Shown here in pieces: positions 14,335 to 62,220 of a stretch of 64,000 bases of DNA. The stretch comes from Macrostomum lignano (lineage: Eukaryota), in assembly GCA_002269645.1 (NCBI GenBank), contig NIVC01001157.1:62001-126000 (forward strand). Reading direction: 5' to 3'. A program made the translations under genes and the position numbers. Below the pieces are notes generated by a model. That model had not been told where the DNA came from, made no database searches, and worked only from the letters and a program-made list of their open reading frames with translations. Within the stretch, counting starts at the first letter, position 1, and each line of letters begins with the position of its first letter.

Positions 14335-14537
14335 AACACATCTACAGACACTGACTGGCACAAATACAGATACAGCTACAGATACAGATAGTATTAGCCG
14401 CACTCTGGTCATACCTCTAACAGACCATTGAAACAATAGAGTCAAACAAAACAGCAAAGCAAGTCTCAAAGCAGGCGCATTTACAGTTCTTAGGAAGGCA
14501 TTTTTACGTTTTGTTTCCTAATCGCATGAAATTCCAG

Positions 14538-25839: not shown

Positions 25840-27946
25840 ATGTTTAGCTTTGCTATTGATCGTGGAGGCACTTTCACTGATGTCTGGTGCAAAATCCCAT
25901 CAGGAAAAGTTATAGTACGAAAGTTGCTTAGTGAGGATCCAGAGAATTACGACGATGCTCCCAGAGAAGCCATTAGAAGGATTTTGTCAGAATTTGTAAG
26001 TTTTATTCTATTTGATTTGATGCTATTTGCGTTTTACACTATCGTGTATCACTTTAGTATGACTCACAAATAAAGGATATCAACATTGGCGTACACAAGG
26101 TGAATTTTCTATGGGGGACACACCAAGGTAAAAGTGCTATGACAGAGTTATGTGGTAGCATGTATCGCAACAAAGGGCAACAAAAAGTTTTGGTCATGCT
26201 CTTTGGGGGGGATACATCCTCCCTATCCCCCCTCCCTATACCCCTGGATATCAATGCTTATATGATAAATCCATTTTAGCAGCATTATTAGCCTTGTCTA
26301 GAGCAGATTTGAACATTAAACAATCAACAATAGAAAAATATATCTAAGCTTCTATCATTATCATAATGAGTTTTTTGTTTTTATAATTATATATAACAAT
26401 TTTTATTATTATATATATTAATTTTCAATATAACAATTTAAAACTTAAATAAAGGGTTTATTTAGATAACAACCTCAGTCTATAACAAAGAGTGGGCTTG
26501 CTTTCATATGCCATATTATATGGTTGCCAAGTCTATTGTATTAGTTGTTTAACTATTTAATTTATAGCTATCAAAATAGGAATTAGGGTTAATAACAAGA
26601 GGTATAAATAAATTATAGAAACAAATTTAAAATTTATTTTAATTTTTTTCTAATTGATTTTATTCATATTTTAGGAAATAACTATTTCCAATTTCAGTTT
26701 TTAAAAAATCTTATAATTTTTTATTGTGCTAGTAAAGTTGAAATATAATTTTCTTTGCTAATAAATGAAGTTGAATTTTAATGCAAATCTGAACTTTTTA
26801 CCTGCTAGTCTAAAACACAATTAGCAAGAAACTATCCTAGTATTTTTTATTACATTTAAAGGATAAAATTCTTGTATTTAGTATGTTTAGGCCTAGGTTT
26901 AGCAATTTTTATTAGATGCAAAATAGTTTCTAACATATTTGTAATTTGAATTTGTATAATAATATATGATTTTAAATTATTTTATATAATTAAGCATTGC
27001 TGTTTTATAAAATGCAATATCTCAATTGCACTTTGATATTGCATAAACAAAAATTTTAATATTATAGACTATATGAGACTCAATTAGAACTAGACTAGAC
27101 TAGCAATTTCAAATCTGATTGGATTTGACTTAAAATTCTAATGGGAAAACCTCTGCAAAAAACCTGTTATAGGAAAACCTTGTTGTAGAAAAATCTAAAT
27201 GGGGAAATCTTGGTAGGCCCCTAGGAAAGGCTCAATAGGAAAGCTTTGCTATTGGAAAAGCTTGCACTGGCAAACCTTAGTGTTAGTAAGAAAACTTCCT
27301 ATGGGAAATTCTCATAGACCCAAATAGTAATAACTTTTTCTCACAATATAACAATATGGCAGCTAGATCTAGAAAAGCTTTAGTTCTTATAAGAAAAAGT
27401 TCTTATAACTTAAAACTCATAGCTGTAGCTTTGGCAGCACCCTACAGGTGACCTGGCTTAAGCAATAAGATACAAGCTAATATTTGCTAATATATATATA
27501 GGTACAGTATTTTATTTATCTCTAATAGTTATATATTTAACAATCTAGATTTGTCTAATAATCTAGATAACTAGAAAATCTTAAGTTTAGCATCATGTCA
27601 TATGCCCTCTTAAAGTACCAAACATAACTTTCTAATTTTAGTCCGGCACTGATGTGCCCAAAGGATCTCCAATTCCAACAGAGCAGATTCAATGGATTCG
27701 CATGGGCACCACAGTGGCTACAAATGCTTTGCTAGAGCGCAAAGGCGAACGATTCGCCCTGTTAGTTACTAAAGGATTTCGCGACCTGTTGTACATTGGA
27801 AACCAATCTAGGCCTGACATCTTTGATCTGGTAGGATTACTGATTGTTTAGTCTGAAGCTGGCACTGTCTGTCTGTTTTGTCTGTCTGTCTCTCTGTCTG
27901 TCTGTCAGGGTGTCTGTCTGTCTTAGTGTCTTAGTGTCTGTGTGTG

Positions 27947-28019
<73 letters not shown>

Positions 28020-30361
28020 TTTTGTCTGTCTTAGTGTCTGTTTGCCTGTCTGTCTGTCTGCCTGCCTGTCTGTCTGTCTGTCTGTGTCTGTCTGTCAACA
28101 ATATCCGTTTATCAGTCTGTCTACCCTCAGCCTTCCTCTCTCCTCTCCCAGTCAATCTCCATGCCAGAGATGCTGTACGAACGCGTCATCGAAGTTGACG
28201 AACGAGTCCTGCTGGCCCAGCCTTCCTCCTGCCGCTTGGACCCCCAGCCCGGCCCCCTGGCCACCGGTGTCACTGGTGAGTCTGTCCACGTCAGCCAGCC
28301 GCTGAACATGGAGTCGCTGCGCACCGAACTGACCAGCCTACTTGCTGACGGCATTCGCTGCGTAGCCGTGCTGTTTCTGCACTCCTACCTGTACCCGGAG
28401 CACGAGCTGGCCGCCGGCAGGCTGGCTGAAGAACTCGGGTTTAGCCAGGTAGAAGATTGCAGATAGACTAGTACCCGTTGAAAGCGTTACCGTGACAAGA
28501 ATCGCCAGAGTCATTCACTGTCATTGCAAACAAGTCACTATTGACTCTGGCGAATCTGGGGAGACTTGTGACTTCTTAACGACTCAAACGGCCCTGAAAA
28601 AGTCGTCCAAGAGTCGTTGTGGTAGCACTTAACTGTCTACTAACTCAAGTAGACTAAATAGAGTTTTTATAAATGCGAAACGACTCTGAGACGCCTCAGA
28701 TTTGTTTCAGAGTTGCAGACAAAAAAACGTCTCAAATAAATTGAATCTTAAGTGAATATTTGACGACTTTTTGGCGATTTTTTAACATCGTGAAATCTCG
28801 TCATTTTAGAGTCGTCAAGAGTCACTTCTTTCCTATTTTACCTGCAACGACTCTAAAGCATTCAGGTCATTCAGGTGTGTCAGGTGATGTCACTAGGGTC
28901 ACTGACAGCTTGGGTTGGATTTGACATCATTCAGGTGTGTCAGGTGATGTCAGTAGGGTCACTGACAGCTTGGGTTGGATCTGACATCATTCAAGTGTGC
29001 CAGGTGATGTCAGTAGGGTCACTGACAGCTTGGATTGGATCTGACATCATTCAGTTGGGTCAGGTGATGTCAGTAGGGTCACTGGCAGCTTGGGTTGGAT
29101 CTGACATCATTCAGGTGTGTCAGGTGATGTCAGTAGGGTCACTGACCGCTTGGGTTGGATCTGACATCATTCAGGTGTGTCAGGTGATGTCAGTAGGGTC
29201 ACTGGCAGCTTGGGTTGGATCTGACATCATTCAGGTGTGTCAGGTGATGTCAGTAGGGTCACTGACAGCTTGGGTTGGATCTGACATCATTCAGGTGTGC
29301 CAGGTGATGTCAGTAAAGTCGCTGGGTTGTATCTGACATCGTTCTGGTAATGTCAGATCATTAGAAATCGCTGACAATGTTTTAGGTTTGCCTCCGTAAC
29401 ACAGCGCACTCACCCACTGCAATGCACGTATCCAGGTGTCCCTGTCGCACCGAGTGATGCAGATGGTTCGGGCTGTTCCGCGTGGTCACACAGCCTGTGC
29501 GGACGCCTACCTGACGCCGTGCATCGATAAGTACATCGAAGGATTTGCGTCCGGATTCGCTGGAGGTTTAAAGGTCAGACAAGGGTACTTTTGTTGTACT
29601 TTACAAAAAATAAAAATGTTTTATTAATTGATTTTCATCCATGTACTTTTATTTTTAGAATTTAAAGGTACTGTTTATGCAGAGTGACGGCGGGCTTGCG
29701 CCAGTAAATCAGTGAGTACACTTGACATCAGTGAGTACACATCACATCAGTGAGTACACATGACATCAGTGAGTACACATCACATCAGTGAGTGCACATG
29801 ACATCAGTGAGTACACATGACATCAGTGAGTACACATGACATCAGTGAGTACACATGACATCAGTGAGTACACATGACATCAGTGAGTACAAATAATATC
29901 AGTGAGTACAAATAATATCAGTGATACACATGACATCAGTGAGTACACATGACATCAGTGAGTACACATGACATCAGTGAGTACACATGACATCAGTGAG
30001 TACACTTGACATCAGTGAGTACACATGAGATATGATATAGTACACCTATGTGCACATGAGAACTTGCCGTTGTCAATCGATAACCTCAGATTCAACGGTT
30101 CCCGAGCAATTCTGTCTGGTCCAGCTGGCGGCGTGGTCGGCTACGCCCTGACAACGCATCGACAGGCGGGCGGTGCGCCAGTCATTGGCTTCGACATGGG
30201 CGGCACCAGCACCGATGTGAGCAGGTTCGATGGCCAGCTGGAGCACGTGTTCGAGACTACAACTGCTGGAGTGGCTATTCAGGTCTGTCTGCCTGCCTGC
30301 CTGTCTGCCTGCCTGCCTGTCTGTCTGCCTGCCTGTCTGTCTGTCTGTCTGTCTGCCTGCC

Positions 30362-30400
<39 letters not shown>

Positions 30401-30401
30401 G

Positions 30402-30450
<49 letters not shown>

Positions 30451-30453
30451 GCC

Positions 30454-30500
<47 letters not shown>

Positions 30501-30601
30501 GTGTCTGTCTGTGTGTCTGTCTGTCTGTGTGTCTGTCTGTCTGTCTGTCTGTGTGTCTGTCTGTCTGTCTGTCTGTCTGTGTGTCTGTCTGCCTGCCTGC
30601 C

Positions 30602-30650
<49 letters not shown>

Positions 30651-33600
30651 GCCTGTCTGTCTGTCTGCCCGTCTGTCTGCCTGTCTGTCTGTCTGTCTGT
30701 CTGTCTATATTAATATTAATCTATATGTATGTATCTCACATCTCAGGCCCCCCAGCTGGACATCAACACGGTGGCCGCAGGCGGCGGTTCCCGCCTGTTC
30801 TTCCGCTCCGGCCTGTTCGTCGTCGGGCCCGAGTCGGCTGGCGCGCACCCCGGCCCGGTCTGCTACAGGAAAGGCGGCCCCCTGACCGTCACGGATGCCA
30901 ACCTGGTGCTGGGCCGGCTGCTCCCGGATCAGTTTCCGAAGATCTTTGGACCCACCGCTGATCAGGCGCTGGACGCAGAGGGGGCAAGGTGAGATTTTGG
31001 GATATTGATTGATGAGATCCAGGCATGAGATTGACTGATTGATGAGATTCACTGAGATTGATAAGATCCTGTGAAATTGATTGATAGAATTCTAGTGAGA
31101 TTGATTAATTGATAATATCCAGTGAGATTGATTAATTGATAATATCCAGTGAGATTGATAATATCCAGTGAGATTGATAATATCCCGTGAGATTGATAAG
31201 ATCTAGTGAGATTGATAAGATCCAGTGAGATTGATAAGATCTAGTGAGATTGATAGGATCCAGTGAGATTGATAAGATCCAGTGAGATTGATAAGATCTA
31301 GTGAGATTGATAATATCCAGTGAGATTGATAAGTCCAGTGAGATTGATAAGTCCAGTGAGATTAATAGGATCCAGTGAGATTGATAAGATCCAGTGAGAT
31401 TGATTAATTGATAAGATTCAGTGAAATTGTTTGATGGAATTCTAGTGAGATTGATTAATTGATAAGATCCAGTGAGATTGATTAATTGATAATATCCAGT
31501 GAGATTGATAATATCCAGTGAGATTGATAATATCCCGTGAGATTGATAAGATCTAGTGAGATTGATAAGATCCAGTGAGATTGATAAGATCTAGTGAGAT
31601 TGATAGGATCCAGTGAGATTGATAAGATCCAGTGAGATTGATAAGATCTAGTGAGATTGATAATATCCAGTGAGATTGATAAGTCCAGTGAGATTAATAG
31701 GATCCAGTGAGATTGATAAGATCCAGTGAGATTGATTAATTGATAAGATTCAGTGAAATTGTTTGATGGAATTCTAGTGAGATTGATTAATTGATAAGAT
31801 CCAGTGAGATTGATTAATTGATAATATACAGTGAGATTGATAAGATCCAGTTAGATTGATAAGATCCAGTTAGATTGATAAGATCCAGTTAGATTGATAA
31901 GATCCAGTGAGATTGATTAATTGATAAGATTCATTGAGACTGATTGATAAGATTGATTGAGACTGATTGATAAGATTGATTGAGACTGATTGATAAGATT
32001 CATTGAGACTGATTGATAAGATTCATTGAGACTGATTGATAAGATTCATTGAGACTGATTGATAAGATTCATTGAGACTGATTGATAAGATTCATTGAGA
32101 CTGATTGATAAGATCCAGTGAGACTGATTGATAAGATTCATTGAGACTGATTGATAAGATTCATTGAGACTGATTGATAAGATTCATTGAGACTGATTGA
32201 TAAGATTGATTGAGACTGATTGATAAGATTCATTGAGACTGATTGATAAGATTGATTGAGACTGATTGATAAGATTCATTGAGACTGATTGATAAGATTC
32301 ATTGAGACTGATTGATAAGATTCATTGAGACTGATTGATAAGATTCATTGAGACTGATTGATAAGATTCATTGAGACTGATTGATAAGATTCATTGAGAC
32401 TGATTGATAAGATCCAGTGAGACTGATTGATAAGATTCATTGAGACTGATTGATAAGAGTAGTAGGAAAGTGGTACCCTCTACCGCCATCGCACGGGATT
32501 GGCCGGGGCACCCGGCCAATGAGGGGAGAGGGCGCCCCGAAGACGCCCACCCCGACGCCAAACCCACCCCGACCCCAAACCCACCCCGACCCCAAACCCA
32601 CCACCGCCACGCACCCAATCCCGACCCCAAACCCACGCACCCACCCCCGACCCCAAACCAGGCCCCCTCCTGTCCTACACCCCTCCTGTCCTGCACCCCG
32701 TGCATCCCATACCAAGACCCCCTCCTGTCCTGCACCCCGTGCATCCCATACCAAGACCCCCTCCTGTCCTGCACCCCGTGCATCCCATACCAAGACCCCC
32801 TCCTGTCCTGCACCCCGTGCATCCCATACCAAGACCCCCTCCTGTCCTGCACCCCATGCATCCCATACTAAGACCCCCTCCTGTCCTACACCCCTCCTGT
32901 CCTGCACCCCGTGCATCCCATACCAAGACCCCCTCCTGTCCTGCACCCCATGCATCCCATACCAAGGCCCCCTCCTATCCTACGCCTTGCCCCATCCCAT
33001 GTAGCAAGGTCCTTCTATCCTGTACCCTAACCAAAACCAATTCCCCCCTCCTAATTCCTAAACCCAAGTCTTATTACCTGTCTCACTTACCGCCTTTAAA
33101 GCTAGCCAAGGCAAAACCCTCATTCCATGCTTTGGTTGTACTGTATCTTGCTGTGGCGGGTACAGCGTGAGGTCGTTAGACCTAGAACGCTACTTCTTGG
33201 CGGCCAGAGGGCCGCAAGAAGGTCCCGCCACCTCCTGTTACGTTGATGGCTGAGACTTTGTTAAGGCCCGAGTTCCTGCGAAAGGGCTGCTGTGTGGGGG
33301 TTGGATTTGGGGTTCGGATTAGTTATTTCTATGGAACAGGAGCTGGTTTCTAAATGGCTGAGTGGTCCCCGGAAGGGCTCCTGATTTGCCGAGAGTTCCT
33401 GTGAGAGGGCTGTTGTGTGGGGTTGGATTCGGGGTTCGGATTGGTTATTGCTATGGAGCGGGAGCTGGTGTTACTTACCAACTCTCGTCGTATATAATCT
33501 CGCACACAGCCGGAAGGAAAGCTCACAGTGAACAAAATGAACTTCAAGACATTATCGAACAGATTTCGAATCGGCGTCAGGTCGCACTCGAAGTGCATCA

Positions 33601-36600
33601 GCATCAGAAAGTGGTACAAATTTGATGAAGAGTATCGACCAGGTCTGCCTGGCATGGAGCTCACCGTCCACCAGTTTTGCCACTTGGGCAGCCTGAAGGA
33701 ACGACTGGAAGAGTTTGCAAGAAAGTGTATCGATGCGCAATGCCTTCTGGGTGGCAACAGGCAAGTGGTTGTGCAAAATGGCGTAATCACACTCTGGCGC
33801 CTTCCAACTGTACTCGGACCGCCGGTGCACCTAAGGCACGCCTTACCGCTTCCTACAAAACTTTGGCGCGAAGTCTGGGCTCAAAAGCATTGGGTCCTAG
33901 ACAAAATTGTCAAGCGAGAACCTCCGGTCAAGCCACCGATCGGCGATCCATGGGATACCACCCTACGGAGCCTGAAGAGTGTGCAGCATGGGCAGCAAGG
34001 CTTACACTCGACCAACTTATACAAGTACCTGACAGGCAGCCGGCAGAGTGGGACGACCACTGGGAGGCTTTCCAGGCAGTTCAGGCTGAATTTAGAAAGA
34101 GATTTGCATCCGAAACTCTGGAAGAGCCACCAACAGCTGAGAAGAACCAACAGCCTTCATTCCACCAGCCACCAATGAAGCGACGCGCAATGCATGAAGC
34201 GACAACTGGTCATTTCGTCAATTAACGTTTTTAATATAGTTTTGAACCATAGTACTGATCATGCACTGTTGTATATACTGCTTTGTCAATACTGGCTATA
34301 ATATTGCCCCATCATGCTTTGATTCCGGGCGATAATACTGTTTTGTAAATACAGGCGACGGGCCTTAATACTGCCCTTCCATTCTTAATAAACTTTTTTG
34401 TGCTAATACGAGCTTTTAACATGTAATTTTATGCTTTTCAATCCATGGACCTGCCAATAAAATAAACAAAAAAAAACATTTCATTTTCGTAAGCATTGTT
34501 GCACAAACATAGTCGCATTCGCGTTTATTTTTTCTTATATTTTGTACACAAAAAATATAGAAGTAAAGTTATAGGAAAAATATTATTATTATTATAATTA
34601 TTATTACTCGGTGCATAGGCAGATCTCACTACTACTGTTATGCCGTAGAGGAGCTCAGTCAGAGTCCAGCAAAGTAGGTTCGGATGCTTGATCTGGTAGC
34701 AAAATGCGGGAGAGGGCATCAGCTGCAGTCTGAGCCTCAACCACGCTGCGAGCACCAGCTATTATACAGCGATATGAATGAAACAAAATCAACTTTACAG
34801 AGGCAGTAAACTCGAGCACAAGTCCGTTAAACATTTCCGGCTCGTAGGTGGCCCGATGCGGCCATTTAGACTTGACTTCCCCCAACCGGAGTGGATGCCG
34901 ACCCGCGGGAAAGGTCGTCACAGAGGTAATAGTCTTGATGCGAATCTGGGGCAGACTGGTCAATCGCAAGAAGTCCGCACACAACTTCACAATCTTCTCT
35001 GTCTCTGCGAGAGCTTCCTCCATGCTTTTGGCTCCACAGACAGACACTTGTCCGGTCGGATACACCAGCGCGGTTACTCGATGCTGCCCGCTCTTCATCA
35101 CCACAGCCAGTGTTCGAGGATGAACCAGGCGATGGCGGATTGTGTGATACTGAGGCAGATGAAGAGTCAGGAAATTCGCTAGTTGTGGCAGAGCCACCCG
35201 GGTCGCCAGGTCGGCTCCTGTCACGATGTTTGTTACGCGAATTGCTCCGGCCATCTTTAGACAATCGAGAGAAATGCCAGTGCCTGCTGCAGATCGCTAC
35301 TTTTATAGACCCGTAGCCGCGAGGCCGCAGCCAATCAGCGTACAGCGCCACCTTGGCCAGGGCGTAGGGTAGCACGTACTTCGAGGCACTCGGAAAGGCC
35401 AGGTGTGCGAGGTCGTAGACAGGCTGTAGCAGCAGACGCGACAGGAACTGGCACTTGACATCCCCCTTGCTAAATATCGGGCCTTGCAAGTGAGAGATAT
35501 CGCTCCAGAGACAAGAGTAGGGTCGGAACCCACTCCTGTCCCAGTCTAGACCGTGCCGCTTATTGGTGAGCCAGTAGCAGGTTCGTCGCTGTCCTCGATC
35601 AAAGAGCTCAAAGCTGTGCGGCGGTCGGTAGCAATAGTAATGAGCCGTCGTTTGACCGCATGCAAACTCAACCCATGCAATTTCCTTAATCACAAAGTCC
35701 TCTGTTTTGTAGAGGTGCGGAAATCCTTCAAAATCAATGACAATCATCTTGGCCACTTGATCCACTTGCCGTATCCTTTCTGAGACTGAGTCTTCTTATA
35801 GTCTTGCAGTCGAGGTTTTTTAGGACTAGACTTTTCTTCCCGAGGCTTTTCCAGCAATTTTGTAGTGTTCAGACCAACTGCAGACAGAGGCACGTGGTTT
35901 TCTTGAAGACACGTAACAAACTCATTAATCCCATTCGGTGGCTGAAGGTACTTAGAGTACGTATCTTTAACTATGAAATGCAGCAGGTCCACGATATTTG
36001 AGTTGTACAACGGTTTACCATTGACAGAAACTTCATACGTATCATCTATGCTAATCGACTTGCACTTTACGGTTATGAAGCTAATCAATGCCTGCAGACG
36101 ATGATGCCATTTCTGATTCACCGTCAGATATAAAACCTCCTTCCACTGCGGTTCTTTGTGAATTACTGGAGGCTGTTCTTGGGTCGCACTTGCCTGCAGC
36201 TGCTGCACGCAACGCTCGTCCCTAATCTTGCGCAACCGTTTTTCCGCCTCTAGCTCGGGTTCACAGACTGTCTCCATGCCCCTCTGATTCACAAGTGCCT
36301 CATACTGCAACCGGGGTACCAGTATCATTTCCTTGTACATGTCTTTTTATACAGGTGAGAATCAGAGGAAGACAACGAAGGATATGCGGGTGTGAGAGAT
36401 TGCGCCGAGCCTCTTTCACACTTTTGCTTTGTGCAACAAGCCGGAGAGTATTTCGATATCGCCTGAGTCTCCGCTTCAAGCTATCTTCACAGCCAACTTT
36501 TCCTGCTAGTAAGTTGATAATACACTCGACCAAAAAGCAAATGGTGCTTTTATTTGCATAGGTAAGTATGCAGCGACGCAAGGATATAGTGCCCTCACAA

Positions 36601-39600
36601 AAGACAGTTATTAGTGCAATGTGTTTATCCATGTTTAACTCAGTGCAGAGACTGAGCCATTCTTATAGATAAACTCGCTGCGGGGCCTCATCGGGGAGAA
36701 AATTGGCTCTCAGGCGCAGTTCATGGGGTGAAGCGGGGTGAAAATCAAGCAGCAGATAGCGCTGATCTCCATCTCGCACCAATCGATCCATCAGTTCTAC
36801 TAGCAGAGTGCGCCGTTTGGGAAAGCATTGCTGACTTAAAGCTTGGACCGCAGAGGCGTCTCTGGGGTTGTTGAACAACACAATGTAGGTGCAATTTATG
36901 CTAATTGTGCGCCACTCTCTGCCTTTGAAAAATAGATTTTGCGTGATGAGAATGACAAAGCAGGGCTTGTGGTGAGCCTCACGGGTGAACAGATGTCGTA
37001 GCTCTCGACTTGCAGCTGCTTCATCCAGTAAATCGTCAATCACAATCAGGTCATGGGGCTGCAGATCCAAATTCGATAATCCTTCACATACTTGCACTCC
37101 TAGCCGCCGCAGAGTCGTGTGGAGTTCCGGCTGCGGGCATCCGTGATACCAAATCATCCGCTTGGGAGGTTGGTCGAACAGAAGCAGTCGTTGGGACAGC
37201 AACCGCAAACAGAATGTTGATTTTCCCGCTCGAGAAGGGCCCGAAACCATCATGCAGCCTCCCATCCGCAGTCTGGAATCAAACACATTGCAACTGATTT
37301 TTGAGTCTGAGTATGATTGCATCGTTTTGAGCCACAGCTGCCGGGTGCAAAACCTTGATGAACAAGGCATTATATGACATTCTCTTATGTAGTCGATGGA
37401 TCAAGTAAAAAATGCAATACCAGCCGCATAGAGTTGACGAACTGGGCTGAACAGGGACCGTATTCCATTGTAGCACCATCCGCGTCGGTTTAGTTTTCTT
37501 TAACCAGCTCTTCATATTTTTACTCAATATTGGGGTGGAGGGACTTGACTTCAAATACTTCCTCACTCCATCCCCTTGTGTATCCCTTGGTGAATGGGTT
37601 GGCCAGATTGCGAAGAGAGATTCGCACCATCATTCCTGCCTTGAACTTTGGTCTGGAGACCTTTTCACGAGTCTCAGGAAGCTTCCCATCGTAAAGCCGC
37701 TGCCAAATTTCCATCTCGTTTGACTTGTCGACATCAACTGGTCGGCTTTGAATACTCCGATGAATATTCTGGTTGTATGCTTTTGCTAAGGGTTGAAGCA
37801 CATCGGTCCAGGTTAATGTTGACTTGTGACGGAAGTACCGCCACATTCGGGATTTCAGTGTGCGGTTCCATCTCTCAATGGCTGCGCATTTCTGGTCACT
37901 ACTTGATGTGAATGCATGAATTTTGTGGTTTACGCAGAGGGCTCGGAACTGGGTGTTGCAAAACTCTTTTCCACGGTCGGTCCGAACTGCTCGTGGGCAT
38001 CGAGGGTGAGCTCGATTTAGGATCGCTTCGAATCCGGCTGCAACCTCCTCGGCTGTCTTGCGGCGCACTGGCTGAACCCAGGCAAACTTGCTGAGCACAT
38101 CAATGCAGCATAGAATATATCGTACGCCGCCATTGTACTTAGCGAACGGCAGCATTTCAACAAGGTCCAGTTCCCACTGGTCATCCATGCCCCGCACCAC
38201 AATCGGTGCTCGACAAAAGTTTTTGCGTTTATCTCTATGCAGTGTGTAGACATCTTGGTCTTGGAGCCACGTTTTTACCTTTAATTGTAAAAAAAAAAAC
38301 TGGAAATTGCTAGTTAGTGGATAAAACTAAAAACCTAAGCTGGAATTTTCTAGAAAATCATTGGTTTAGAAGTATATCGTATATGCATACCTGCCCTACA
38401 CTAAACTTGGGTCCGTGGTGTTTGTGCAACTCTCGTTTTAATGCCTGATAGCCGCCATAGCTGCCCGGTCTACTGCAGTCAAAATAAATACCTGGCAGAA
38501 GGTTTGAAATTGCCTTTTTCGTTTTCATTTTACCGAATTTCTAGTACCTATCATTTTCTTATGCCAAACACCCGGCTTGAAAAAAAAAACTGCCCACCCC
38601 ACCAGTTTCTGCGGATTTAGCGTTTCTAGCCTCTGTTGTGCACGAAAAAGCATGCATGTTTGCACAAAATACATACATTTCGATGGGAATTTTTACCCGA
38701 ATGTGTGCACAAAAAACCTCAACACTTTGCATACTTTTTAACACTGTGCACGAAAACTTGCATACTTGTGCACAAAATACATGTATTTCAATAGGGATTT
38801 GTACCCGAACCCTCGCATGAAAGTAGACGCATTTTGTCGAAAAATTCACGCCGTATTGCATACTTTTAATCACTGGACGAAAACTTGCATACTTTTGCAT
38901 AAAACACATGTATTTCAATAGAGATTTTTAACCTTTTTTAAGTGCATGAAATTTTACATTGTTTTACACGATTTAATTTTACACAAAAACTAGTATTTCG
39001 ATTTGAATTTAGTTTGTTTTATATATTATTTTATCGACAGTTTTAAACCCTTTTTACTTTATGAAAATAAATAAAAAAAAATTTTCTTTTTACCAGCCTC
39101 AACTCAAACTAACATATATACATTTCATGTTTATTAAAAAAGTGCCATAATTCCTCGTTAGTAATTAAAAATCAGCAAATGAAACGTACAAAAATGCAAC
39201 GCACACATTGGCAGTATTATCGGCCAAAACATTCTGATTATATTAAAAAATGGTATCAATGGTATTTTTATTATCTAGACAGCAGAATAAAACAAAACAT
39301 CATCGTTATTATCAATAAACAAGGTAGGTACAAGTTTCGTATTCAGAAAAATCTAGTCAAACGGGCAGGGTCGCTTTCGCTTCTCAGCCTCTAGACGCCA
39401 GTGGCCGTAGGGTAGGCTCTGATTTGCCGCGAGCCATGCCCTCTTGTCCTCCCAAAACGAGAGTGCGCGTTTCAAGGTGGCAGTGGTGAACAACTCATGA
39501 TGCTCACTGGCAATACGACGCGTCAGCCAGGACTTTTCTTCCATTTTCATCAAAGTTTCGCAGTAGTCGGCGTGGCAGATTTCATTTTGCACTACAGATC

Positions 39601-42600
39601 GCTGCACACCCTTAGCACGACGCTTGTCCTTGGAGGAGTTTACTGCAGCAAAGGAATAGAGCTTGGGACGCAACAGGATCCACTCATAAAAGTTCGCTGT
39701 ACCATCGCTCTCATCCTTTACACAGCCTAACCTTGCTTTGCGTTCGCAAGTATACAAGCAATGGTCCTTGGGATAATTAGAGGTGTCCAGCAGCTCCATT
39801 TCGCACAGTTTAGGCAGAAACCATCGCTCGCCATCAGCATTCTTTAAGTGGAGGAAGAAAGAGTCAGTGTCACCGCCGAGCAGACTGAGGCTCGCACACG
39901 GTAACTGATTGACCAGCGGAAGCAGCTTATCATACCACAAGCTGTACATAATGAGTTTGCTGTTATCAAGGACACACTGTCCGATGTACACCGGTTTGTT
40001 GAGCTCGACTGTTGTCTTGCGCATGTGGACGAGAACAAGATTCTCATTAAATATCTCTTGATCTTCAAAGTTAGGTTTAGCTGCGAGCTTCTCCAACTTC
40101 TCTGCTGAGTTGACCAGGCGGTAGTCGACGCGTTTGCGCACGTTCTCCATGGTCTTTCCAAACAGAGAGTTGTTCAGCAGCTTATTATAATCCTTTTCAA
40201 ACTCATTTTTGGCTTGTGCACGCCGCTCACTATTACGTCGAATGTAAGGCTCGAGTACTGCTGCTTGCTGAAAGCGAACAATGCAGTGGACAGTACGCAG
40301 CCTAAGACCTAGACGGAGATAAAACTGTAGGATTCTGGCGTGTACAACATAGCTGGTTTTATCAAAGCATGTCAACATCAACTTGTCGCCTCCTGAATTA
40401 TATCCTCCGCAAGAGAGCCTCTGTCTAGAAAGTAGTTCCCAGAGCTGCTGCTGATGCGGCGGCATCCATTCCCATTGAGGCTGCGCCTTCTCTGGAGCAA
40501 GGGGCAAGTCTGATGTCTTGTCGTGCAACTCTGGGGGGTAATGGAGATCAACCTTTAGCAGGTATCCAACATCGCCCTCTGGGTCAAACTCATCCCTGAT
40601 CCATCTCTCAACCTCATTGTTTGGTGGTACAGTGTCAAGCACTTGGAACCCACACCATGGCAGTTTGGTGGACAAGGCGTGTCCGTAGAGGTTGTTGGCG
40701 TCGATGGGGATAAGATAGGTTTGAGGTTGATGCGAATCATACAGCTCACCGAGTCCGGGATGGTTGGCTTTGGCTCTGTGTGTGTTGACAAATGTCATAC
40801 CACCACGAGTACCCTCTTCAAATAAGCTGTACAACTCTGGACATTGCAGCAATTCAAGCTCCAATTTACAGTACTTAAGCGCTGCTTCGAAAGACATTCC
40901 CGGCGTCGTTATAAAATGCACTGGGTCTAGCCCATCCGAAGTGAGGCTCATTCGACGAAACGCCTCGAACACATCGGCGAGCTGGCGAATGTCCATTTCT
41001 AGGTATGCAAGCATGTAGTCGCGCAGTGTCTCACATCCAAACTCTCTCCAGGCACGCTGGGCAGTTGCATAGTCCTGATCATTGCAAGGCTCATTGTTCA
41101 AGTCGTTAGCAAAAGCTTCTTGGGATGGGAGCTGTTGCTCATCTAAATTCGAATCACTAGTTACATAGGAATAGGGGAACACCCCCTTTCGCAGTAGGAC
41201 TTCGGTGGAGGCGAGTGGATATCGCTGCTGCATCTCCATCGTGTAGTGACAGTCTACCGGGGTTAGATTGCGCACTAATTGAGCAAGACTCGACGCCATG
41301 AATTGGAAAGAGTCGAGAAAACGCAGACGCATGAATTTTGGCACCAAGCGATCTTTAGATGAGTCATAGACCGACTCAATAGGTATACGGGCCTCTAGAG
41401 TCATGTAACGCTCCTTTGTTTGTGCAATGACACTTAGTTCCCAATGTTTCATACGACCGATCACCGTGCTGCACAACAAGTGTGAATCATAACCTCGGAA
41501 ATTGTGAAAAAAGATTGGAAGAAAGTCGCGCTTGAGAACAGCTGACTCATTACACGACGGGCATGCAGCACCCAAAAACTTGCCATTGAGATGATCATGA
41601 TGAAAGTGGCGATCGTCATCAAGAACTTTCTCGCACAAGCAGCAATGAGTGGCAGTCTGGAACTGCTCTTCCTCCTGGACAGAGCGATTGGCAGGGTAAT
41701 GACTATGTCGCGCATTCCACTTGTATGCTGCAATGGCGACAGCCTCCAGTGCCTGTAGGAAGTGCATCATGCACTCATCCGACTTTTAAAACAGCTGCAT
41801 AGGACGTTTGGAGAGTGGAGGCCCAGCTACGTCACTTCTTTGGACAATAAGGAATCCGGCAGCGGCTGGAAGGTGGTGTGCAGTCTTAAAGGTAACACAG
41901 CCATCTAGCTCATCGTCTATGGGGGACATCATTGCTTCAAAATCTGCATAGATGACATGAGGTGGGGAGAGTGTTTTGTGCCATGCCTTGAATCGTAGTG
42001 TTTTATCCTTTGGCATCACCTCCTCCATGCTATCCTTACGGCCAATGCACCGCCGTCTATGAACGGATAGAGACTCAACCGTCCGGAACTTGCCTAGACA
42101 GCGATCGCACCAACGATATCTATGCGCGTCATGACTGTTCATTAGACGATCTAGGTTAGCAATAGCACACCAATGGTTGCCGGCATCAGTGGTAACCAAT
42201 AGAAGCAGGATCAATCGATGAGGTCGCCATTCCTGAATGAGATCTGCTGGGGCTGGGCGTAAGCACTGGGCATGGCCGTTAGTCCAGTTGAAGGCCGAGA
42301 TAGCCAATCCTGGATTGTTCTTTTCCACTCGACCCAGGTCATTCACGTTGGCAGGGAAAGGAACGTTGTCCCAACGGAGTTCGTCTTCCCACTCCCGGAA
42401 AGTGGAGCGTCGCAAAGGCTTCTCACTGCTGACACGGTCTGCGTGCAATGCAGACAGAACGGCATATTTCAGACAGTCGTTCCCACTGGAGTAGGCATTG
42501 ATCACTGCCTTTTTAGCCTTTAGCTTTGGTGGAAGTTCAAATGGGTTGGAACTTATACCTGAGCCATGAGGCAACTGATATCTTACAATGGAAAGATCTA

Positions 42601-45600
42601 CGCAGCGAGTGGAGTCAATTGTCCACCCACTGCCATTGCGAAGGTATTTGCTCAGTCGTTCCAAAATAAGTGGGATTTCCCGAACAAAGAAATCTTCTTC
42701 CTCATCTGAAAGGACTTCGGCCGTTTCACTGGCAAACCAGGCTGTGCTCTGCGCCACAAAGCTGCCACCAGCCCAACGCTGCATAGACACGCCGAGTCGG
42801 ATTTGGACCTTGATGGCAAAGCCTGGTTTCGAACGCAGATCTGCCAGGAGTTCTGTGCCTGAAGCAATGGATGACTCCAGGGCGTCGATGGGATCGCCGG
42901 CAACGATCCGCCGATAGAGTCGCGTCTGGCCGAAAAATGCTTCTTTAATTAATTGGAATTGACATGGTTCATCAGAAAATAAAGTTGGAATAATTGGGCA
43001 CACTGAGTAGTGAGCTAATATGTCACCGGGCACTGTCTGACTACAGTATTCACAAAATGTCATGTTTAAAATTTAGAACGCAAAATTTAAAAGTCTTTAA
43101 ATAAAACTCTAGGACCGAAAAACTGTGAGCTTTCCTTCCGGCTGTGTGCGAGATTATATACGACGAGAGTTGGTAAGTAACACCAGCTCCCGCTCCATAG
43201 CAATAACCAATCCGAACCCCGAATCCAACCCCACACAACAGCCCTCTCACAGGAACTCTCGGCAAATCAGGAGCCCTTCCGGGGACCACTCAGCCATTTA
43301 GAAACCAGCTCCTGTTCCATAGAAATAACTAATCCGAACCCCAAATCCAACCCCCACACAGCAGCCCTTTCGCAGGAACTCGGGCCTTAACAAAGTCTCA
43401 GCCATCAACGTAACAGGAGGTGGCGGGACCTTCTTGCGGCCCTCTGGCCGCCAAGAAGTAGCGTTCTAGGTCTAACGACCTCACGCTGTACCCGCCACAG
43501 CAAGATACAGTACAACCAAAGCATGGAATGAGGGTTTTGCCTTGGCTAGCTTTAAAGGCGGTAAGTGAGACAGGTAATAAGACTTGGGTTTAGGAATTAG
43601 GAGGGGGGAATTGGTTTTGGTTAGGGTACAGGATAGAAGGACCTTGCTACATGGGATGGGGCAAGGCGTAGGATAGGAGGGGGCCTTGGTATGGGATGCA
43701 TGGGGTGCAGGACAGGAGGGGGTCTTGGTATGGGATGCACGGGGTGCAGGACAGGAGGGGTGTAGGACAGGAGGGGGTCTTAGTATGGGATGCATGGGGT
43801 GCAGGACAGGAGGGGGTCTTGGTATGGGATGCACGGGGTGCAGGACAGGAGGGGGTCTTGGTATGGGATGCACGGGGTGCAGGACAGGAGGGGGTCTTGG
43901 TATGGGATGCACGGGGTGCAGGACAGGAGGGGTGTAGGACAGGAGGGGGCCTGGTTTGGGGTCGGGGGTGGGTGCGTGGGTTTGGGGTCGGGATTGGGTG
44001 CGTGGCGGTGGTGGGTTTGGGGTCGGGGTGGGTTTGGGGGTCGGGGTGGGTTTGGCGTCGGGGTGGGCGTCTTCGGGGCGCCCTCTCCCCTCATTGGCCG
44101 GGTGCCCCGGCCAATCCCGTGCGATGGCGGTAGAGGGTACCACTTTCCTACTACTGATAAGATTCATTGAGACTGATTGATAAGATCCAGTGAGACTGAT
44201 TGATAAGATTCATTGAGACTGATTGATAAGATTCATTGAGACTGATTGATAAGATCCAGTGAGACTGATTGATAAGATTCATTGAGACTGATTGATAAGA
44301 TTCATTGAGACTGATTGATAAGATTCATTGAGACTGATTGATAAGATTCATTGAGACTGATTGATAAGATTCATTGAGACTGATTGATAAGATTCATTGA
44401 GACTGATTGATAAGATTCATTGAGACTGATTGATAAGAACCAGGGAGATTGATTCATAAGATGCGGTGAGATTGATTGATTGATTGATAGGATCCAGTGA
44501 GATTGATAGGATCCAGTGAGATTGATAGGATCCAGTGAGATTGATAGGATCCAGTGAGATTGATAGGATCCAGTGAGATTGATAGGATCCAGTGAGATTG
44601 ATAGGATCCAGTGAGATTGATAGGATCCAGTGAGATTCAATGATTCAATCTAGATTCTGCCAATCGCAGTCGCAGTTGATTGATGATCCCTAAATTGCAA
44701 AATCTCTTATCTCAGACAGGCAATGTCAGCGCTGACAGATGAGATCAACGCTTTCTTATCAGCAGAGACCGGCCAGGCTGCCATGTCAGTTGAGGAGGCC
44801 GCCCTAGGCTTCGTGCGAGTCGCCAACGAGTCAATGTGCCGCCCTATTAGGGCTCTGACCCAGGCTAAGGGGCACAATACGGCTAAGTAAGTCTGGGACA
44901 TTGGGGTCTGGTTTAGCTTTGCTTGCTGCTGATTACCAATCTGTATCTATTTGTCACTCTTTATTACCTATCTGTCACTCCATAGTTAACTGTTTGTCAC
45001 TCCATAGCTACCTCTGTCACTCTATAGCTACCTATCTGTCACTCCATAGCTACCTCTGTCACTCCATAGCTACCTATCTGTCACTCCATAGCTACCTATG
45101 GATACATATCTACATAACTCCATATAACTCCATAGCTACATATCCGCCACGCCCTAACCGCCATAGCTATCTATCTGGCACTCCATAGCTGCAGGGTGGT
45201 CCGTAGACACAGCGGGGAGGCGAGGGTCGCCCATTCCGCTACACTCCATAGCTACCTGTCTGTCACTCCATAGCTACCTGTCTGTCACTCCATACCTACC
45301 TGTCTGTCACTCCATAGCTACCTGTCTGTCACTCCATAGCTACCTGTCTGTCACTCCATAGCTACCTATCTGTCACTCCATAGCTACCTATGGATACATA
45401 TCTACATAACTCCATATAACTCCATAGCTACATATCCGCCACGCCCTAACCGCCATAGCTATCTATCTGGCACTCCATAGCTGCAGGGTGGTCCGTAGAC
45501 ACAGCGGGGAGGCGAGGGTCGCCCATTCCGCTACACTCCATAGCTACCTGTCTGTCACTCCATAGCTACCTGTCTGTCACTCCATACCTACCTGTCTGTC

Positions 45601-48600
45601 ACTCCATAGCTACCTGTCTGTCACTCCATAGCTACCTGTCTGTCACTCCATAGCTACCTGTCTGTCACTCCATAGCTACCTGTCTGTCACTCCATAGCTA
45701 CCTGTCTGTCACTCCATAGCTACCTGTCTGTCACTCTATAGCTACCTGTCTGTCACTCCATAGCTACCTGTCTGTCACTCCATAGCTACCTGTCTGTCAC
45801 TCTATAGCTACCTGTCTGTCACTCCATAGCTACCTATCTGTCACTCCATAGCTACCTGTCTGTCACTCCATAGCTACCTGTCTGTCACTCCATAGCTACC
45901 TGTCTGTCACTCCATAGCTACCTGTCTGTCACTCCATAGCTACCTGTCTGTCACTCCATAGCTACCTGTCTGTCACTCCATAGCTACCTGTCTGTCACTC
46001 CATAGCTACCTATCTGTCACTCCATAGCTACCTGTCTGTCACTCCATAGCTACCTGTCTGTCACTCCATAGCTACCTGTCTGTCACTCCATAGCTACCTG
46101 TCTGTCACTCCATAGCTACCTGTCTGTCACTCCATAGCTACCTGTCTGTCACTCCATAGCTACCTGTCTGTCACTCCATAGCTACCTGTCTGTCACTCCA
46201 TAGCTACCTGTCTGTCACTCCATAGCTACCTGTCTGTCACTCTATAGCTACCTGTCTGTCACTCCATAGCTACCTGTATGTCACTCCATAGCTACCTGTC
46301 TGTCACTCCATAGCTACCTGTCTGTCACTCTATAGCTACCTGTCTGTCACTCCATAGCTACCTGTCTGTCACTCCATAGCTACCTGTCTGTCACTCTATA
46401 GCTACCTGTCTGTCACTCCATAGCTACCTGTCTGTCACTCCATAGCTACCTGTATGTCACTCCATAGCTACCTGTCTGTCACTCCATAGCTACCTGTCTG
46501 TCACTCCATAGCTACCTATCTGTCACTCTATAGCTACCTGTCTATCACTCCATAGCTACCTGTCTGTCACTCCATAGCTACCTGTCTGTCACTCCATAGC
46601 TACCTGTCTGTCACTCCATAGCTACCTGTCTGTCACTCCATAGCTACCTATCTGTCACTCTATAGCTACCTGTCTGTCACTCCATAGCTACCTGTCTGTC
46701 ACTCTATAGCTACCTGTCTATCACTCCATAGCTACCTGTCTGTCACTCCATAGCTACCTGTCTGTCACTCCATAGCTACCTATCTGTCACTCTTTAGCTA
46801 CCTGTCTATCACTCTATAGCTACCTGTCTATCACTCCATAGCTACCTGTCTGTCACTCTATAGCTACCTGTCTATCACTCCATAGCTACCTGTCTGTCAC
46901 TCCATAGCTACCTGTCTGTCACTCCATAGCTACCTGTCTGTCACTCTATAGCTACCTGTCTATCACTCCATAGCTACCTGTCTATCACTCTATAGCTACC
47001 TGTCTGTCACTCCATAGCTACCTGTCTGTCACTCCATAGCTACCTGTCTGTCACTCCATAGCTACCTGTCTGTCACTCTATAGCTACCTGTCTATCACTC
47101 CATAGCTACCTGTCTGTCACTCTAATCCCACCGCCTCACCCGCAGGCACGCCCTGGCCTGTTTCGGCGGAGCCGGCGGTCAGCACGCTTGTGCAATCGCC
47201 CGCAGTCTGGGCATGACTCGGGTTTTTGTGCACAAGTACTCCGGCATCCTCAGCGCCTTCGGCCTCGCGCTGGCCGATGTGGTGCACGAAGCTCAGGAGC
47301 CTTGCGCCCTGGAGTACCGGCAGGGTAGGCGAGCGGTTTGCATCTGCTTCTGTGTCCGTGTTCTGTGTCCGGTGCCTCTATGGTCTCTGTCCTGTGTCTA
47401 TGGTCTGTGTCCCGTGTCTCTATGGTCTGTGTCTTGTGTCTCTATGGTTTGTGTCCTGTGTCTCTATGGTTTGTGTCAGGTGTCTTTGGTTTGTGTCAGG
47501 TGTTTCTATGGTCTGTGTCATGTGTCTATGGTCTGTGTCCCGTGTGTCCAGTCTGTGTCCAGTCTGTGTCCAGTCTGTGTCCCGTGTGTCCAGTCTGTGT
47601 CCAGTCTGTCCAGTCTGTGTCCTGTGTGTCCAATCTGTGTCCCGTGTGTCCAGTCTGTGTCCAGTCTGTCCAGTCTGTGTCCTGTGTGTCCAGTCTGTCC
47701 AGTCTGTGTCCAGTCTGTCCAGTCTGTGTCCTGTGTGTCCAATCTGTGTCCAGTCTGTCCAGTCTGTGTCCTGTGTGTCCAATCTGTGTCCTGTGTGTCC
47801 AGTCTGTGTCCTGTGTGTCCAATCTGTGTCCAGTCTGTCCAGTCTGTGTCCTGTGTGTCCAATCTGTGTCCTGTGTGTCCAGTCTGTGTCCTGTGTGTCC
47901 AATCTGTGTCCTGTGTGTCCAGTCTGTGTCCAGTCTGTCCAGTCTGTGTCCTGTGTGTCCAATCTGTGTCCAGTTTGTCCAGTCTGTGTCCTGTGTGTCC
48001 AATCTGTGTCCTGTGTGTCCAGTCTGTGTCCAGTCTGTCCAGTCTGTCCAGTCTGTGTCCTGTGTGTCCAATCTGTGTCCTGTGTGTCCAGTCTGTGTCC
48101 TGTGTGTCCAATCTGTGTCCTGTGTGTCCAGTCTGTGTCCAGTCTGTCCAGTCTGTGTCCTGTGTGTCCAATCTGTGTCCAGTTTGTCCAGTCTGTTTCC
48201 TGTGTTTCCAATCTGTGTCCTGTGTGTCCAGTCTGTCCTGTGTGTCCAGTCTGTGTCCTGTGTGTCCAGTCTGTGTCCTGTGTGTCCAATCTGTGTCCTG
48301 TGTGTCCAGTCTGTGTCCAGTGTTTCCAATCTGTGTCCAGTCTGTGTCCTGTGTGTCCAGTCTGTGTCCTGTGTGTCCCGTCTGTGTCCCCGTCTTTACT
48401 CCAAATTGTCTATTCCAAATGGTTGTGTTCATTCCGCAGACAACCTGGCCAGTATTGAGAAGCGATTCCAGCATCTGGAGGGAGAGTGCTTGGCCAAGTT
48501 AACTCAACAAGGCTTCGATAAGTAAGTTGAGCATAAATGTTCCGTGTTTTTACTCTAGAAAGTTGAAAAAATGTTTAATAAGGAACTCAACGGTTAACGT

Positions 48601-57600: not shown

Positions 57601-58478
57601 ATCGACGCCAAAGCCGGCAGCGCAGTGTTTGACTTTGCCGGCACATCGCTGGAGAGTCACGGCAATTTGAATGCGCCGCGGGCTGTCACAATGTCCGCCT
57701 TGATCTACTGCCTGCGCTGCATGGTGCCCTACAGCATTCCCCTGAACCAGGGCTGCCTGGCGCCCATCCAGCTCAGACTGCCCGAGGGCAGCCTGCTCAG
57801 CCCCTCCGACATTGCCGCCGTGGTTGGCGGCAACGTGCTCACCTCTCAGCGCATTGTTGACGTCATTCTTGGCGCCTTTAGCGCCTGTGCCGCTTCGCAG
57901 GGCTGCATGAACAATGTGACGTTTGGCGATGACAGCGTCGGATACTATGAGACTGTGGCCGGCGGCTCCGGGGCTGTGAGTGACTGCCTGACTGCCTGAC
58001 TGACTGACTGACTGACTGACTGCCTGACTGACTGACTGACTGACTGACTGACTGACTGCCTGACTGACTGACTGACTGACTGACTGACTGACTGACTGAC
58101 TGACTGACTGACTGACTGACTGACTGCCTGACTGACTGACTGCCTGACTGACTGACTGACTGACTGACTGACTGACTGACTGACTGACTGACTGACTGAC
58201 TGACTGACTGACTGACTGACTGACTGACTGACTGACTGACTGACTGACTGACTGACTGACTGACTGACTGACTGACTGACTGACTGACTGACTGACTGAC
58301 TGACTGACTGACTGACTGACTGACTGACTGACTGACTGACTGACTGACTGACTGACTGACTGACTGACTGACTGACTGACTGACTGACTGACTGACTGAC
58401 TGACTGACTGACTGACTGACTGACTGACTGACTGACTGACTGACTGACTGACTGACTGACTGACTGACTGACTGACTG

Positions 58479-58514
<36 letters not shown>

Positions 58515-61761: not shown

Positions 61762-62139
61762 ATGCTCAGCTTATTTGCACTCGTGCTACTGTTAGTAGTG
61801 CCCAGCAGTGCCCTAGCTAGTAGGTCCGTGTCTGGCTATTTGATCTACTGCCCCTGTATGGGCCGTTTTGGCAATCAGGCTGAGCAGTTTCTTGGCGTCC
61901 TGGCATTTGCCCGCCAACTCCGCCGAACCCTGGTTGTGCCGCCATGGATATCGTATGGCAGGCCGGGTGCTGGCATCGACCTCACACCGTTTGGCAGGCA
62001 TTTCAACCTGACCAAGTTGGATGCCGCCCATCCAGTGATTGATATGCGCCAGTTTGTTGACAAGCTCTCGCCCGCTCTGTGGCCGGCTGGCAGCAGGGCA
62101 GTATTTTGCCACTCTGCTAGAGAGGATGGCACTTGTCAG
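61762..62139 (+). CDS. POFUT1: GDP-fucose protein O-fucosyltransferase 1, first coding exon (gene continues beyond the window)
   Basis: Signal peptide MLSLFALVLLLVVPSSALA, then GYLIYCPCMGRFGNQAEQFLGVLAFARQLRRTLVVPPW (GT65 signature); donor CAG|GTGCGG at 62140. Confidence 0.92.
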
Positions 62140-62220
62140 GTGCGGGCATTTTTCAAAGGCCTGTTATAAAAATTTTATTGTGACGAATTTGAAGCATCTC
62201 TGATCTTTTCCGTAGACTTT

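What the first reader, a model, noticed from the sequence alone, without database searches (positions are those of the whole stretch)
32458..44155. Young, TIR- and TSD-complete Polinton inside an intron of an intact metabolic gene
Seen: AGTAGT termini, near-identical 1-kb TIRs, a 6-bp TSD and an almost fully coding interior. Established: these features plus pPolB, integrase, ATPase and protease define Polintons/Mavericks. At 11.7 kb it is short for the group and its cargo (TBP-like, PC4-like, spliced integrase) is unusual, so it may define a new family.
Basis: partly seen in the sequence, partly recalled or inferred. Interest (0 to 1): 0.75.

Follow-up and report, generated by a model that had tools for sequence, protein, structure and literature searches.

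The report
Defective, capsid-deleted flatworm Polinton copy
This is a recently inserted but broken copy of a virus-like jumping element (a Polinton) in an intron of a flatworm metabolic gene; it is short only because it lost its capsid genes, and its extra genes are already seen in related elements, so it is mostly ordinary.

Summary
The ends are as described: 11,698 bp, AGTAGT termini, ~1-kb TIRs with no substitutions, and a true 6-bp TSD, in intron 7 of an open 5-oxoprolinase gene. A third gene copy lacks the element. But the copy is not gene-complete. Siblings in the same genome are ~14.3 kb. This copy lacks 2,745 bp holding the integrase end, the minor and major capsid genes and the protease 5' half, and its pPolB has a private stop. 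The deletion occurs at this one insertion site only. The TBP-like gene (fold Z 18) and PC4-like gene are real and shared by sister families here. Both are already labelled in other adintoviruses, and Macrostomum adintoviruses are listed, in the PMC11071296 supplements. The 112-bp integrase intron is well supported by sequence, but no spliced contig was seen. Verdict: a defective copy of a new member of a known kind. More interesting leads: the intron gain, the altered TBP, and about 19 contigs carrying a polymerase-less chimeric form.

The parts
32452..32457 (+). left target-site duplication (GATAAG), inside a 23-bp satellite
32458..33529 (+). left TIR, AGTAGT end, internal 17- and 39-bp repeats; TATATAA at 33491, 46 nt before the PC4-like ATG
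33537..34225 (+). PC4-like gene (PC4 domain residues 6-50); the frame shifts near codon 139 relative to many siblings, so the tail lies in a second frame
   Evidence: (PF02229 E 5.6e-5, below the curated cut-off); sister-family homolog passes the cut-off
34655..35254 (-). TBP-like gene, 199 aa, full saddle fold
   Evidence: PF00352 E 1e-19; Z 18.3, 172 aligned
35250..35747 (-). conserved ORF of about 165 codons with a DEDD-like N-terminal motif (label recalled; no Pfam or PDB hit)
35744..36340 (-). conserved 198-aa ORF (position of Polinton PZ, label recalled), 29-33% to sister families
36300..36632 (-). 110-aa basic ORF; ORFs of 105-112 aa sit at the same place in sister families
36663..37235 (-). 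packaging ATPase (Walker A and B; frame open from 37370)
37279..37527 (-). 3' half of the adenain-type protease (Gln and Cys motifs kept; His-bearing half deleted)
   Evidence: (PF00770 E 0.044)
37527..37530 (.). junction of the 2,745-bp deletion (integrase end with chromodomain, minor-capsid-like, basic core, major capsid, protease 5' half)
   Evidence: (loose ends at 37527/37530 in 4 of 4 runs)
37530..38278 (-). integrase exon 2, DDE core present, C-terminus lost
   Evidence: (rve E 9e-13)
38279..38390 (-). putative 112-bp phase-0 GT-AG intron in the integrase
   Evidence: not seen spliced
38391..38528 (-). integrase exon 1 (46 codons)
39353..43063 (-). protein-primed DNA polymerase B with HNH-like insert; one in-frame stop at codon 426 (41786-41788)
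43122..44155 (-). right TIR; TATATAA at 43160 on the minus strand, 97 nt before the pPolB ATG
44156..44161 (+). right target-site duplication (GATAAG)
30989..44715 (+). intron 7 of the host 5-oxoprolinase gene (13,727 bp here; 1,368 bp without the element in the third gene copy)
25840..59777 (+). host 5-oxoprolinase (OPLAH) gene, 17 exons, 1,298 codons, open frame

Best explanation
A non-autonomous, decaying copy of a ~14.3-kb capsid-encoding Polinton (adintovirus-type) family of a Macrostomum flatworm. The parent works like other Polintons. A linear genome is copied from the AGTAGT ends by protein-primed pPolB, packaged by the ATPase into a double-jelly-roll capsid matured by the protease, and integrated by the rve integrase with a 6-bp TSD (established for the group, inferred here). 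Each TIR carries a TATA box that fires inward at pPolB on one end and the PC4-like gene on the other (layout shown, function inferred). The central block from integrase to TBP-like gene is one co-oriented run. One genome integrated into a satellite in intron 7 of the 5-oxoprolinase gene (shown). It lost the capsid module just before or soon after integration and before the locus was duplicated (shown; order relative to integration unknown). It then gained, or was mis-assembled with, a stop in pPolB. It cannot make particles alone. It is probably removed with the intron: all element genes but one are antisense to the host gene and the host frame is open (inferred).
For: Siblings carry an extra 2,736-2,745 bp at the junction with integrase end, 267-aa, ~90-aa basic and ~420-aa ORFs and the protease 5' half. 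The large ORF matches DJR-capsid clusters at 0.98. The joined junction occurs in 2 of 40 scored matches (50 candidates); both are this insertion site, and 21 other contigs show only one side. The pPolB stop is absent from the 4 other loci whose alignments span that codon (L001, L002, L004, L019). The window and C254 differ by 13 substitutions over 11.7 kb. The third gene copy has no element. PMC8097293 (passages): 96% of vertebrate Maverick loci are degraded.
Against: Identical TIRs and open ATPase, TBP and core integrase frames mean the copy could still be copied in trans. The own-genome search scores only part of its candidates, so another junction copy could be missed. The stop is the only substitution in a 5.8-kb half and may be an assembly error. 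The folded capsid model was poor (pLDDT 35); its top hits include an adintovirus capsid but at low TM. The minor capsid is assigned by position only (23% to the sister ORF). Host splicing across the 13.7-kb intron was not tested.
Confidence: 0.88

Rival explanations
1. An 11.7-kb capsid-less satellite lineage that keeps polymerase and integrase core and is packaged or mobilised by helper Polintons.
For: TIRs are perfect. The C254 copy of this site has an open polymerase frame. A different deletion form has spread widely in this genome, so mobilisation in trans happens here.
Against: Only one insertion site carries the junction. The deletion cuts two genes mid-frame. No contig joined the junction in 4 of 4 runs laid, though contigs drop rare forms.
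Confidence: 0.06
2. One reading: a complete, naturally short new family defined by unusual cargo.
For: Nearest pPolB outside this genome is 69% identical, most 40-49%. The 9 element-type TBPs form one long-branch group in a quick tree (SH-aLRT 97). The integrase intron is missing from a sister family.
Against: Capsid genes are deleted. TBP and PC4 labels occur in other adintoviruses and in the sister families here, so they do not define this family.
Confidence: 0.03
3. The deletion or the stop is an assembly or polishing artefact.
For: The stop is the single difference from C254 in 5.8 kb. Several window bases in the high-copy left half differ from all contigs laid.
Against: Two contigs with different further changes (C254 carries an extra ~5-kb transposon) share the same junction to the base.
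Confidence: 0.03

Closest known systems
Polintons/Mavericks = adintoviruses of animals (PMC8502044: abstract, results parts 1-2 of 3, supplement search; PMC4028283: abstract; PMC6431247: passages)
   Same: TIRs, pPolB, rve integrase, packaging ATPase, adenain; the family has a DJR major capsid.
   Different: This copy lacks both capsid genes and half the protease. Full-length siblings are ~14.3 kb against 15-25 kb given as typical.
Macrostomum and other 'uAdinto' maps in PMC11071296 (passages; supplements, which are held cut)
   Same: Four Macrostomum adintovirus maps are listed by name. 'PC4' occurs 35 times in the held part of the protein file, and TBP labels occur in five adintovirus maps, of which one (uAdinto13078) looks spurious by eye.
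   Different: The gene lists of the four Macrostomum maps are not in the held text, so I could not tell whether one is this family. They were auto-annotated; the main text has no hit for TBP, PC4 or TATA.
Vertebrate Mavericks (PMC8097293, passages)
   Same: (AGT)2 end motif, 6-bp TSD, most copies defective.
   Different: Intact vertebrate elements have intronless ORFs and average ~17 kb; this family has a GT-AG intron in the integrase.
Nematode Polintons with exchanged polymerases (PMC10748475: passages, section 8, supplement rows)
   Same: Polymerase exchange between Polintons; HNH insert in some pPolBs; 748 Polinton polymerases in 8 of 73 flatworm genomes.
   Different: There the swapped polymerase is whole. 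Here the commonest sibling form carries only a deleted remnant of a sister polymerase.
Sister Polinton families in G000 (C1021, C1297, C130)
   Same: Same central gene run incl. TBP-like (33-39%), PC4-like next to one TIR, AGTAGT ends.
   Different: pPolB ~48-50%, capsid ~43%; central block inverted relative to the pPolB and PC4 ends; the C1021 integrase has no intron.

Membership tests
Polinton/Maverick (adintovirus) | long TIRs with (AG)n or (AGT)2 end motif | tested here: met
   motif per PMC8097293
Polinton/Maverick (adintovirus) | 6-bp target-site duplication | tested here: met
Polinton/Maverick (adintovirus) | protein-primed family B polymerase gene | tested here: met
   PF03175 E 1.6e-12; 455 homologs; one stop in this copy
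Polinton/Maverick (adintovirus) | retrovirus-like rve integrase | tested here: met
   PF00665 E 9e-13; C-terminus with chromodomain only in siblings
Polinton/Maverick (adintovirus) | packaging ATPase | tested here: met
   Walker motifs, weak AAA hits; 42-44% to sister families
Polinton/Maverick (adintovirus), parent family in G000 | double-jelly-roll major capsid and adenain protease | tested here: met
   sibling ORFs: Atlas 0.98 to clusters with PF21738 on 15-30% of members; full protease ORF
Polinton/Maverick (adintovirus), parent family in G000 | single-jelly-roll minor capsid | tested here: inconclusive
   267-aa ORF at the expected place, 23% to the sister ORF; no Pfam hit; not folded
Intact (autonomous) Polinton, this copy | full set of open core genes incl. 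capsids and protease | tested here: not met
Intact Maverick as defined in vertebrates | intronless ORFs | tested here: inconclusive
   intron by sequence; no spliced contig in 4 runs
Alpha/Beta adintovirus or pPolB1/pPolB2 class | placement in a pPolB tree with reference elements | not tested
   no named references held; HNH-like insert only E 0.011
Named Repbase family | match to a Repbase consensus | not testable with these tools
   no Repbase access
Canonical TBP | saddle fold | tested here: met
   Z 18.3, rmsd 2.8, 172 aligned
Canonical TBP | four DNA-kinking phenylalanines (PMC3142196, passage) | tested here: not met
   C-terminal pair kept (F142, F158 invariant in 6 of 6); N-terminal pair is Y65 and T48; mapping to human numbering is my inference

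The most novel reading that the evidence does not exclude
The parent lineage runs its own transcription switch and a helper-satellite economy. Host TBP starts early genes (pPolB, PC4-like) from TATA boxes built into both TIRs. The element's TBP, with the TFIIB-side half kept and the other DNA-kinking half altered, then redirects transcription to the capsid block, while a newly gained intron makes integrase depend on splicing. Polymerase-less but capsid- and integrase-bearing chimeras have spread further than their helpers by borrowing pPolB in trans. The window copy is the complementary capsid-less defective.
Probability: 0.15. Interest if true: 0.7.

Novelty: new member of a known kind. Interest (0 to 1): 0.3.

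Why it matters
The locus itself matters little: it is one more defective Polinton. It shows that perfect TIRs and a TSD do not mean a complete element. The family context is more useful. A laboratory flatworm carries several young Polinton families, some with many near-identical copies. That makes it a place to look for the particles of animal Polintons and to ask what a virus-encoded TBP does. The spread of a polymerase-less form would be direct evidence of trans-complementation among Polintons, and the integrase intron would be an exception to the intronless pattern reported for vertebrate Mavericks.

Tried and rejected
Split polymerase as a family trait (terminal protein separate, as in adenoviruses) or programmed read-through: rejected; the stop lies inside the exonuclease region and is private to this copy. 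Capsid-less form as an amplified subfamily: first suggested by C254, rejected when C254 proved to be the same site. RNA evidence: no RNA holder listed; three runs guessed to be RNA and one DNA run gave no spliced joint, and contigs cross the intron unspliced; this says nothing firm about expression. TBP profile in viral contigs: 13 pattern matches, 0 confirmed. Capsid profile in viral contigs: 33, 0 confirmed. TBP profile in metagenome contigs: 5 of 219 confirmed, all distant (21-35%) and none next to a Polinton gene by tblastn, so the context of the close environmental TBP relatives (P0121-P0123, P0129, P0130) is unknown. Capsid against PDB sequences: nothing; its model was low-confidence. 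DEDD-like ORF: no Pfam or PDB support. A CTAAC branch point is present in the window and 2 of 16 sibling loci only, so I do not lean on it. The TBP tree is the quick version, 75 rows, with 56 of 81 eukaryote-like rows dropped at random and crude motif labels; it does not give an origin. PC4 Atlas hits are below 0.9, leads only. Paper searches: Polinton+Macrostomum 1 unrelated paper; Macrostomum lignano+Maverick+transposable elements 0; Polinton+PC4+TBP 0; Polinton+PC4 1; integrase-intron search 11 papers, seen as a listing, one of them then read in passages for other terms; non-autonomous search 5. The PMC8502044 supplement had no hit for Macrostomum, TBP, PC4 or TATA. Kapitonov and Jurka 2006 was not held. 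Three look-ups in earlier scan findings gave nothing.
Full report
Observation. The element runs from 32458 to 44155 (11,698 bp), begins AGTAGT and ends ACTACT. The TIRs (1,072 and 1,034 bp) align over 1,033 columns with no substitution, one 1-bp gap and one 39-bp repeat-unit gap. GATAAG lies on both sides. The site is a 23-bp satellite that contains this hexamer, but it is duplicated relative to the repeat register, so the TSD is real. Twelve sibling insertions have matching 6-bp TSDs at both ends, each different, one being this same site on another contig. The host gene models as a 17-exon, 1,298-codon open 5-oxoprolinase, with the element in intron 7. A UniRef entry labelled Macrostomum lignano is 99% identical to part of the pPolB.

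The copy is defective. A search of G000 with the element (24 of 200 candidates scored) showed siblings that match on both sides of window 37527/37530 with a gap between. The gap is 2,736-2,745 bp in five sibling loci. It holds the integrase C-terminus with a chromodomain, a 267-aa ORF, a ~90-aa basic ORF, a ~420-aa ORF and the 5' half of the protease. The large ORF scores 0.98 against Atlas clusters that carry the double-jelly-roll family PF21738 on 15-30% of members. Its AlphaFold model was poor, with a bracovirus protein and an adintovirus capsid as top structural hits. Two full-length siblings span 14,353 and 14,316 bp. All four sequencing runs laid show loose ends at exactly this junction, leading into the missing block. 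The pPolB gene has one in-frame stop at codon 426 of 1,236 that is absent from the four other loci whose alignments span it. The PC4-like ORF changes frame near codon 139 relative to many siblings.

One event, not a subfamily. The joined junction is found in 2 of 40 scored matches, the window and C254, while 21 other contigs show one side only. C254 has the same TSD, satellite and host exons, so it is a second copy of the same locus. It has since taken up a ~5-kb insertion with a transposase-like ORF (P-element-like by eye, not searched). The two copies differ by 13 substitutions, 12 in the left half and 1 in the right, the latter at the stop codon. The stop is therefore very recent or an assembly error. 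A third, more diverged copy of the host gene (C863, 93%) has a 1,368-bp intron and no element; its satellite differs, so it is a related empty locus rather than an exact pre-insertion allele.

Cargo. The TBP-like protein has the full saddle (pLDDT 86; Z 18.3 to human TBP). Of the four phenylalanines that kink DNA (PMC3142196), the C-terminal pair is invariant in 6 of 6 aligned element-type proteins; the N-terminal pair is Tyr and Thr here; the two glutamates of the second stirrup, which I recall as the TFIIB contact, are invariant. The gene is under purifying selection between sister families (dN/dS 0.18-0.32) and less clearly so within this family (0.39 and 0.67). At least 150 matches exist in G000 (150 of 200 candidates scored); in the three sister loci fetched it lies in the same gene run. 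The PC4-like gene is weak alone (below the Pfam cut-off) but its sister homolog passes, and it has at least 150 matches. Each TIR has a TATATAA near its inner edge, 46 nt before the PC4-like start and 97 nt before the pPolB start; a third lies at 39025. I infer that the TIRs act as twin early promoters and that the PC4-like protein binds single-stranded DNA during strand-displacement copying; neither is shown.

Integrase intron. A 112-bp phase-0 GT-AG segment (38279-38390) separates two parts that are contiguous in the sister-family integrase and line up with it without a gap around the junction (by eye). In 16 of 16 sibling loci where both anchors were found the ends are GT and AG, while the length is 95, 96, 106, 111 or 112 bp, mostly not a multiple of three; some of these loci are the same site twice. 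That is the pattern of an intron. No spliced joint was seen in four runs, three of them only guessed to be RNA. PMC8097293 reports no introns in intact vertebrate Mavericks. One search for introns in Polinton integrases listed 11 papers whose titles do not point to a case; I did not read them for this, and Repbase was not available.

The more unusual thing lies outside the window. The commonest sibling form joins this family's left arm, capsid block and integrase to a different right end, which has a diverged TIR (about 79% over the outer 370 bp) and only two fragments of a sister polymerase (about 50% and 60% identical). This end has 21 matches at 86-100% on 19 contigs (40 of 70 candidates scored), against 10 contigs with this family's polymerase (56 of 1,469 candidates scored). 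Six of these sites were checked to have their own TSD at both ends. Less-deleted relatives of the donor polymerase exist. These counts are lower bounds, and some contigs repeat one site. The form must borrow polymerase in trans to spread, which is inferred. Polymerase exchange between Polintons is known (PMC10748475).

Comparison with what is known. All defining Polinton features are met by the family; the intact-element test is failed by this copy. Flatworm Polintons are known in bulk (748 in 8 of 73 genomes; listed by accession only, not resolved). The supplements of PMC11071296 list four Macrostomum adintovirus maps and label PC4 (35 occurrences in the held part) and TBP (five maps, one doubtful) in other adintoviruses. 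The gene lists for the Macrostomum maps lie outside the held text, so this family may already be among them. PMC8502044 also names TBP in a figure legend on related viruses. The cargo is thus under-discussed rather than new.

Verdict. A real, young, defective copy of a Polinton family that is at most unnamed: new member of a known kind, interest 0.3. The leads worth following are the altered TBP, the integrase intron and the amplified polymerase-less chimera.

Noticed in passing
G000: C738, C255, C1184, C2485, C5126, C176 and others (L026-L037, L053, L054, L071-L075): Amplified chimeric form of the same family: left arm, capsid block and integrase, but a sister-family right end with an internally deleted polymerase and mismatched TIRs; 21 matches on 19 contigs.
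   Followed up: partly
G000: C1021, C1297, C130 (L048-L052): Sister Polinton families with many near-identical copies, the same TBP-like and PC4-like cargo, and the central gene block inverted relative to the pPolB and PC4 ends.
   Followed up: partly
L025:1804-4274 (G000:C254): About 5-kb insertion with a transposase-like ORF (P-element-like by eye) nested in the second copy of this same insertion; the flanking matches overlap by 8 bp, suggesting an 8-bp TSD.
   Followed up: partly
window 25840-59777; G000:C254 and C863: The 5-oxoprolinase gene has three copies in the assembly, two nearly identical and one at 93%; many of its introns are filled by a different tandem repeat each.
   Followed up: partly
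window 1-14334: A 30-bp satellite of about 477 copies at 99% identity.
   Followed up: no
window 14500-20100: Cysteine- and Asn-X-Ser/Thr-rich exons of an upstream gene, probably a secreted or membrane glycoprotein (by eye).
   Followed up: no
window 49250-50570: An ORF-like stretch inside a later intron of the host gene, interrupted by a 21-bp tandem repeat; perhaps another mobile-element remnant (by eye).
   Followed up: no
window about 61800-62150: Start of a downstream gene with a signal peptide and a 'YCPCMGRFGNQ'-type motif that I recall from protein O-fucosyltransferase 1 (not searched).
   Followed up: no
G000:C592 149500-159200 and C862 (L030): Rearranged family copies with inverted internal duplications.
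   Followed up: no
P0001, P0121-P0123, P0129, P0130, P0276, P0277: Close relatives of the pPolB (69%), TBP-like (60-63%) and capsid (69-79%) proteins in unnamed environmental assemblies, so the lineage extends beyond this genome; their linkage was not testable.
   Followed up: partly
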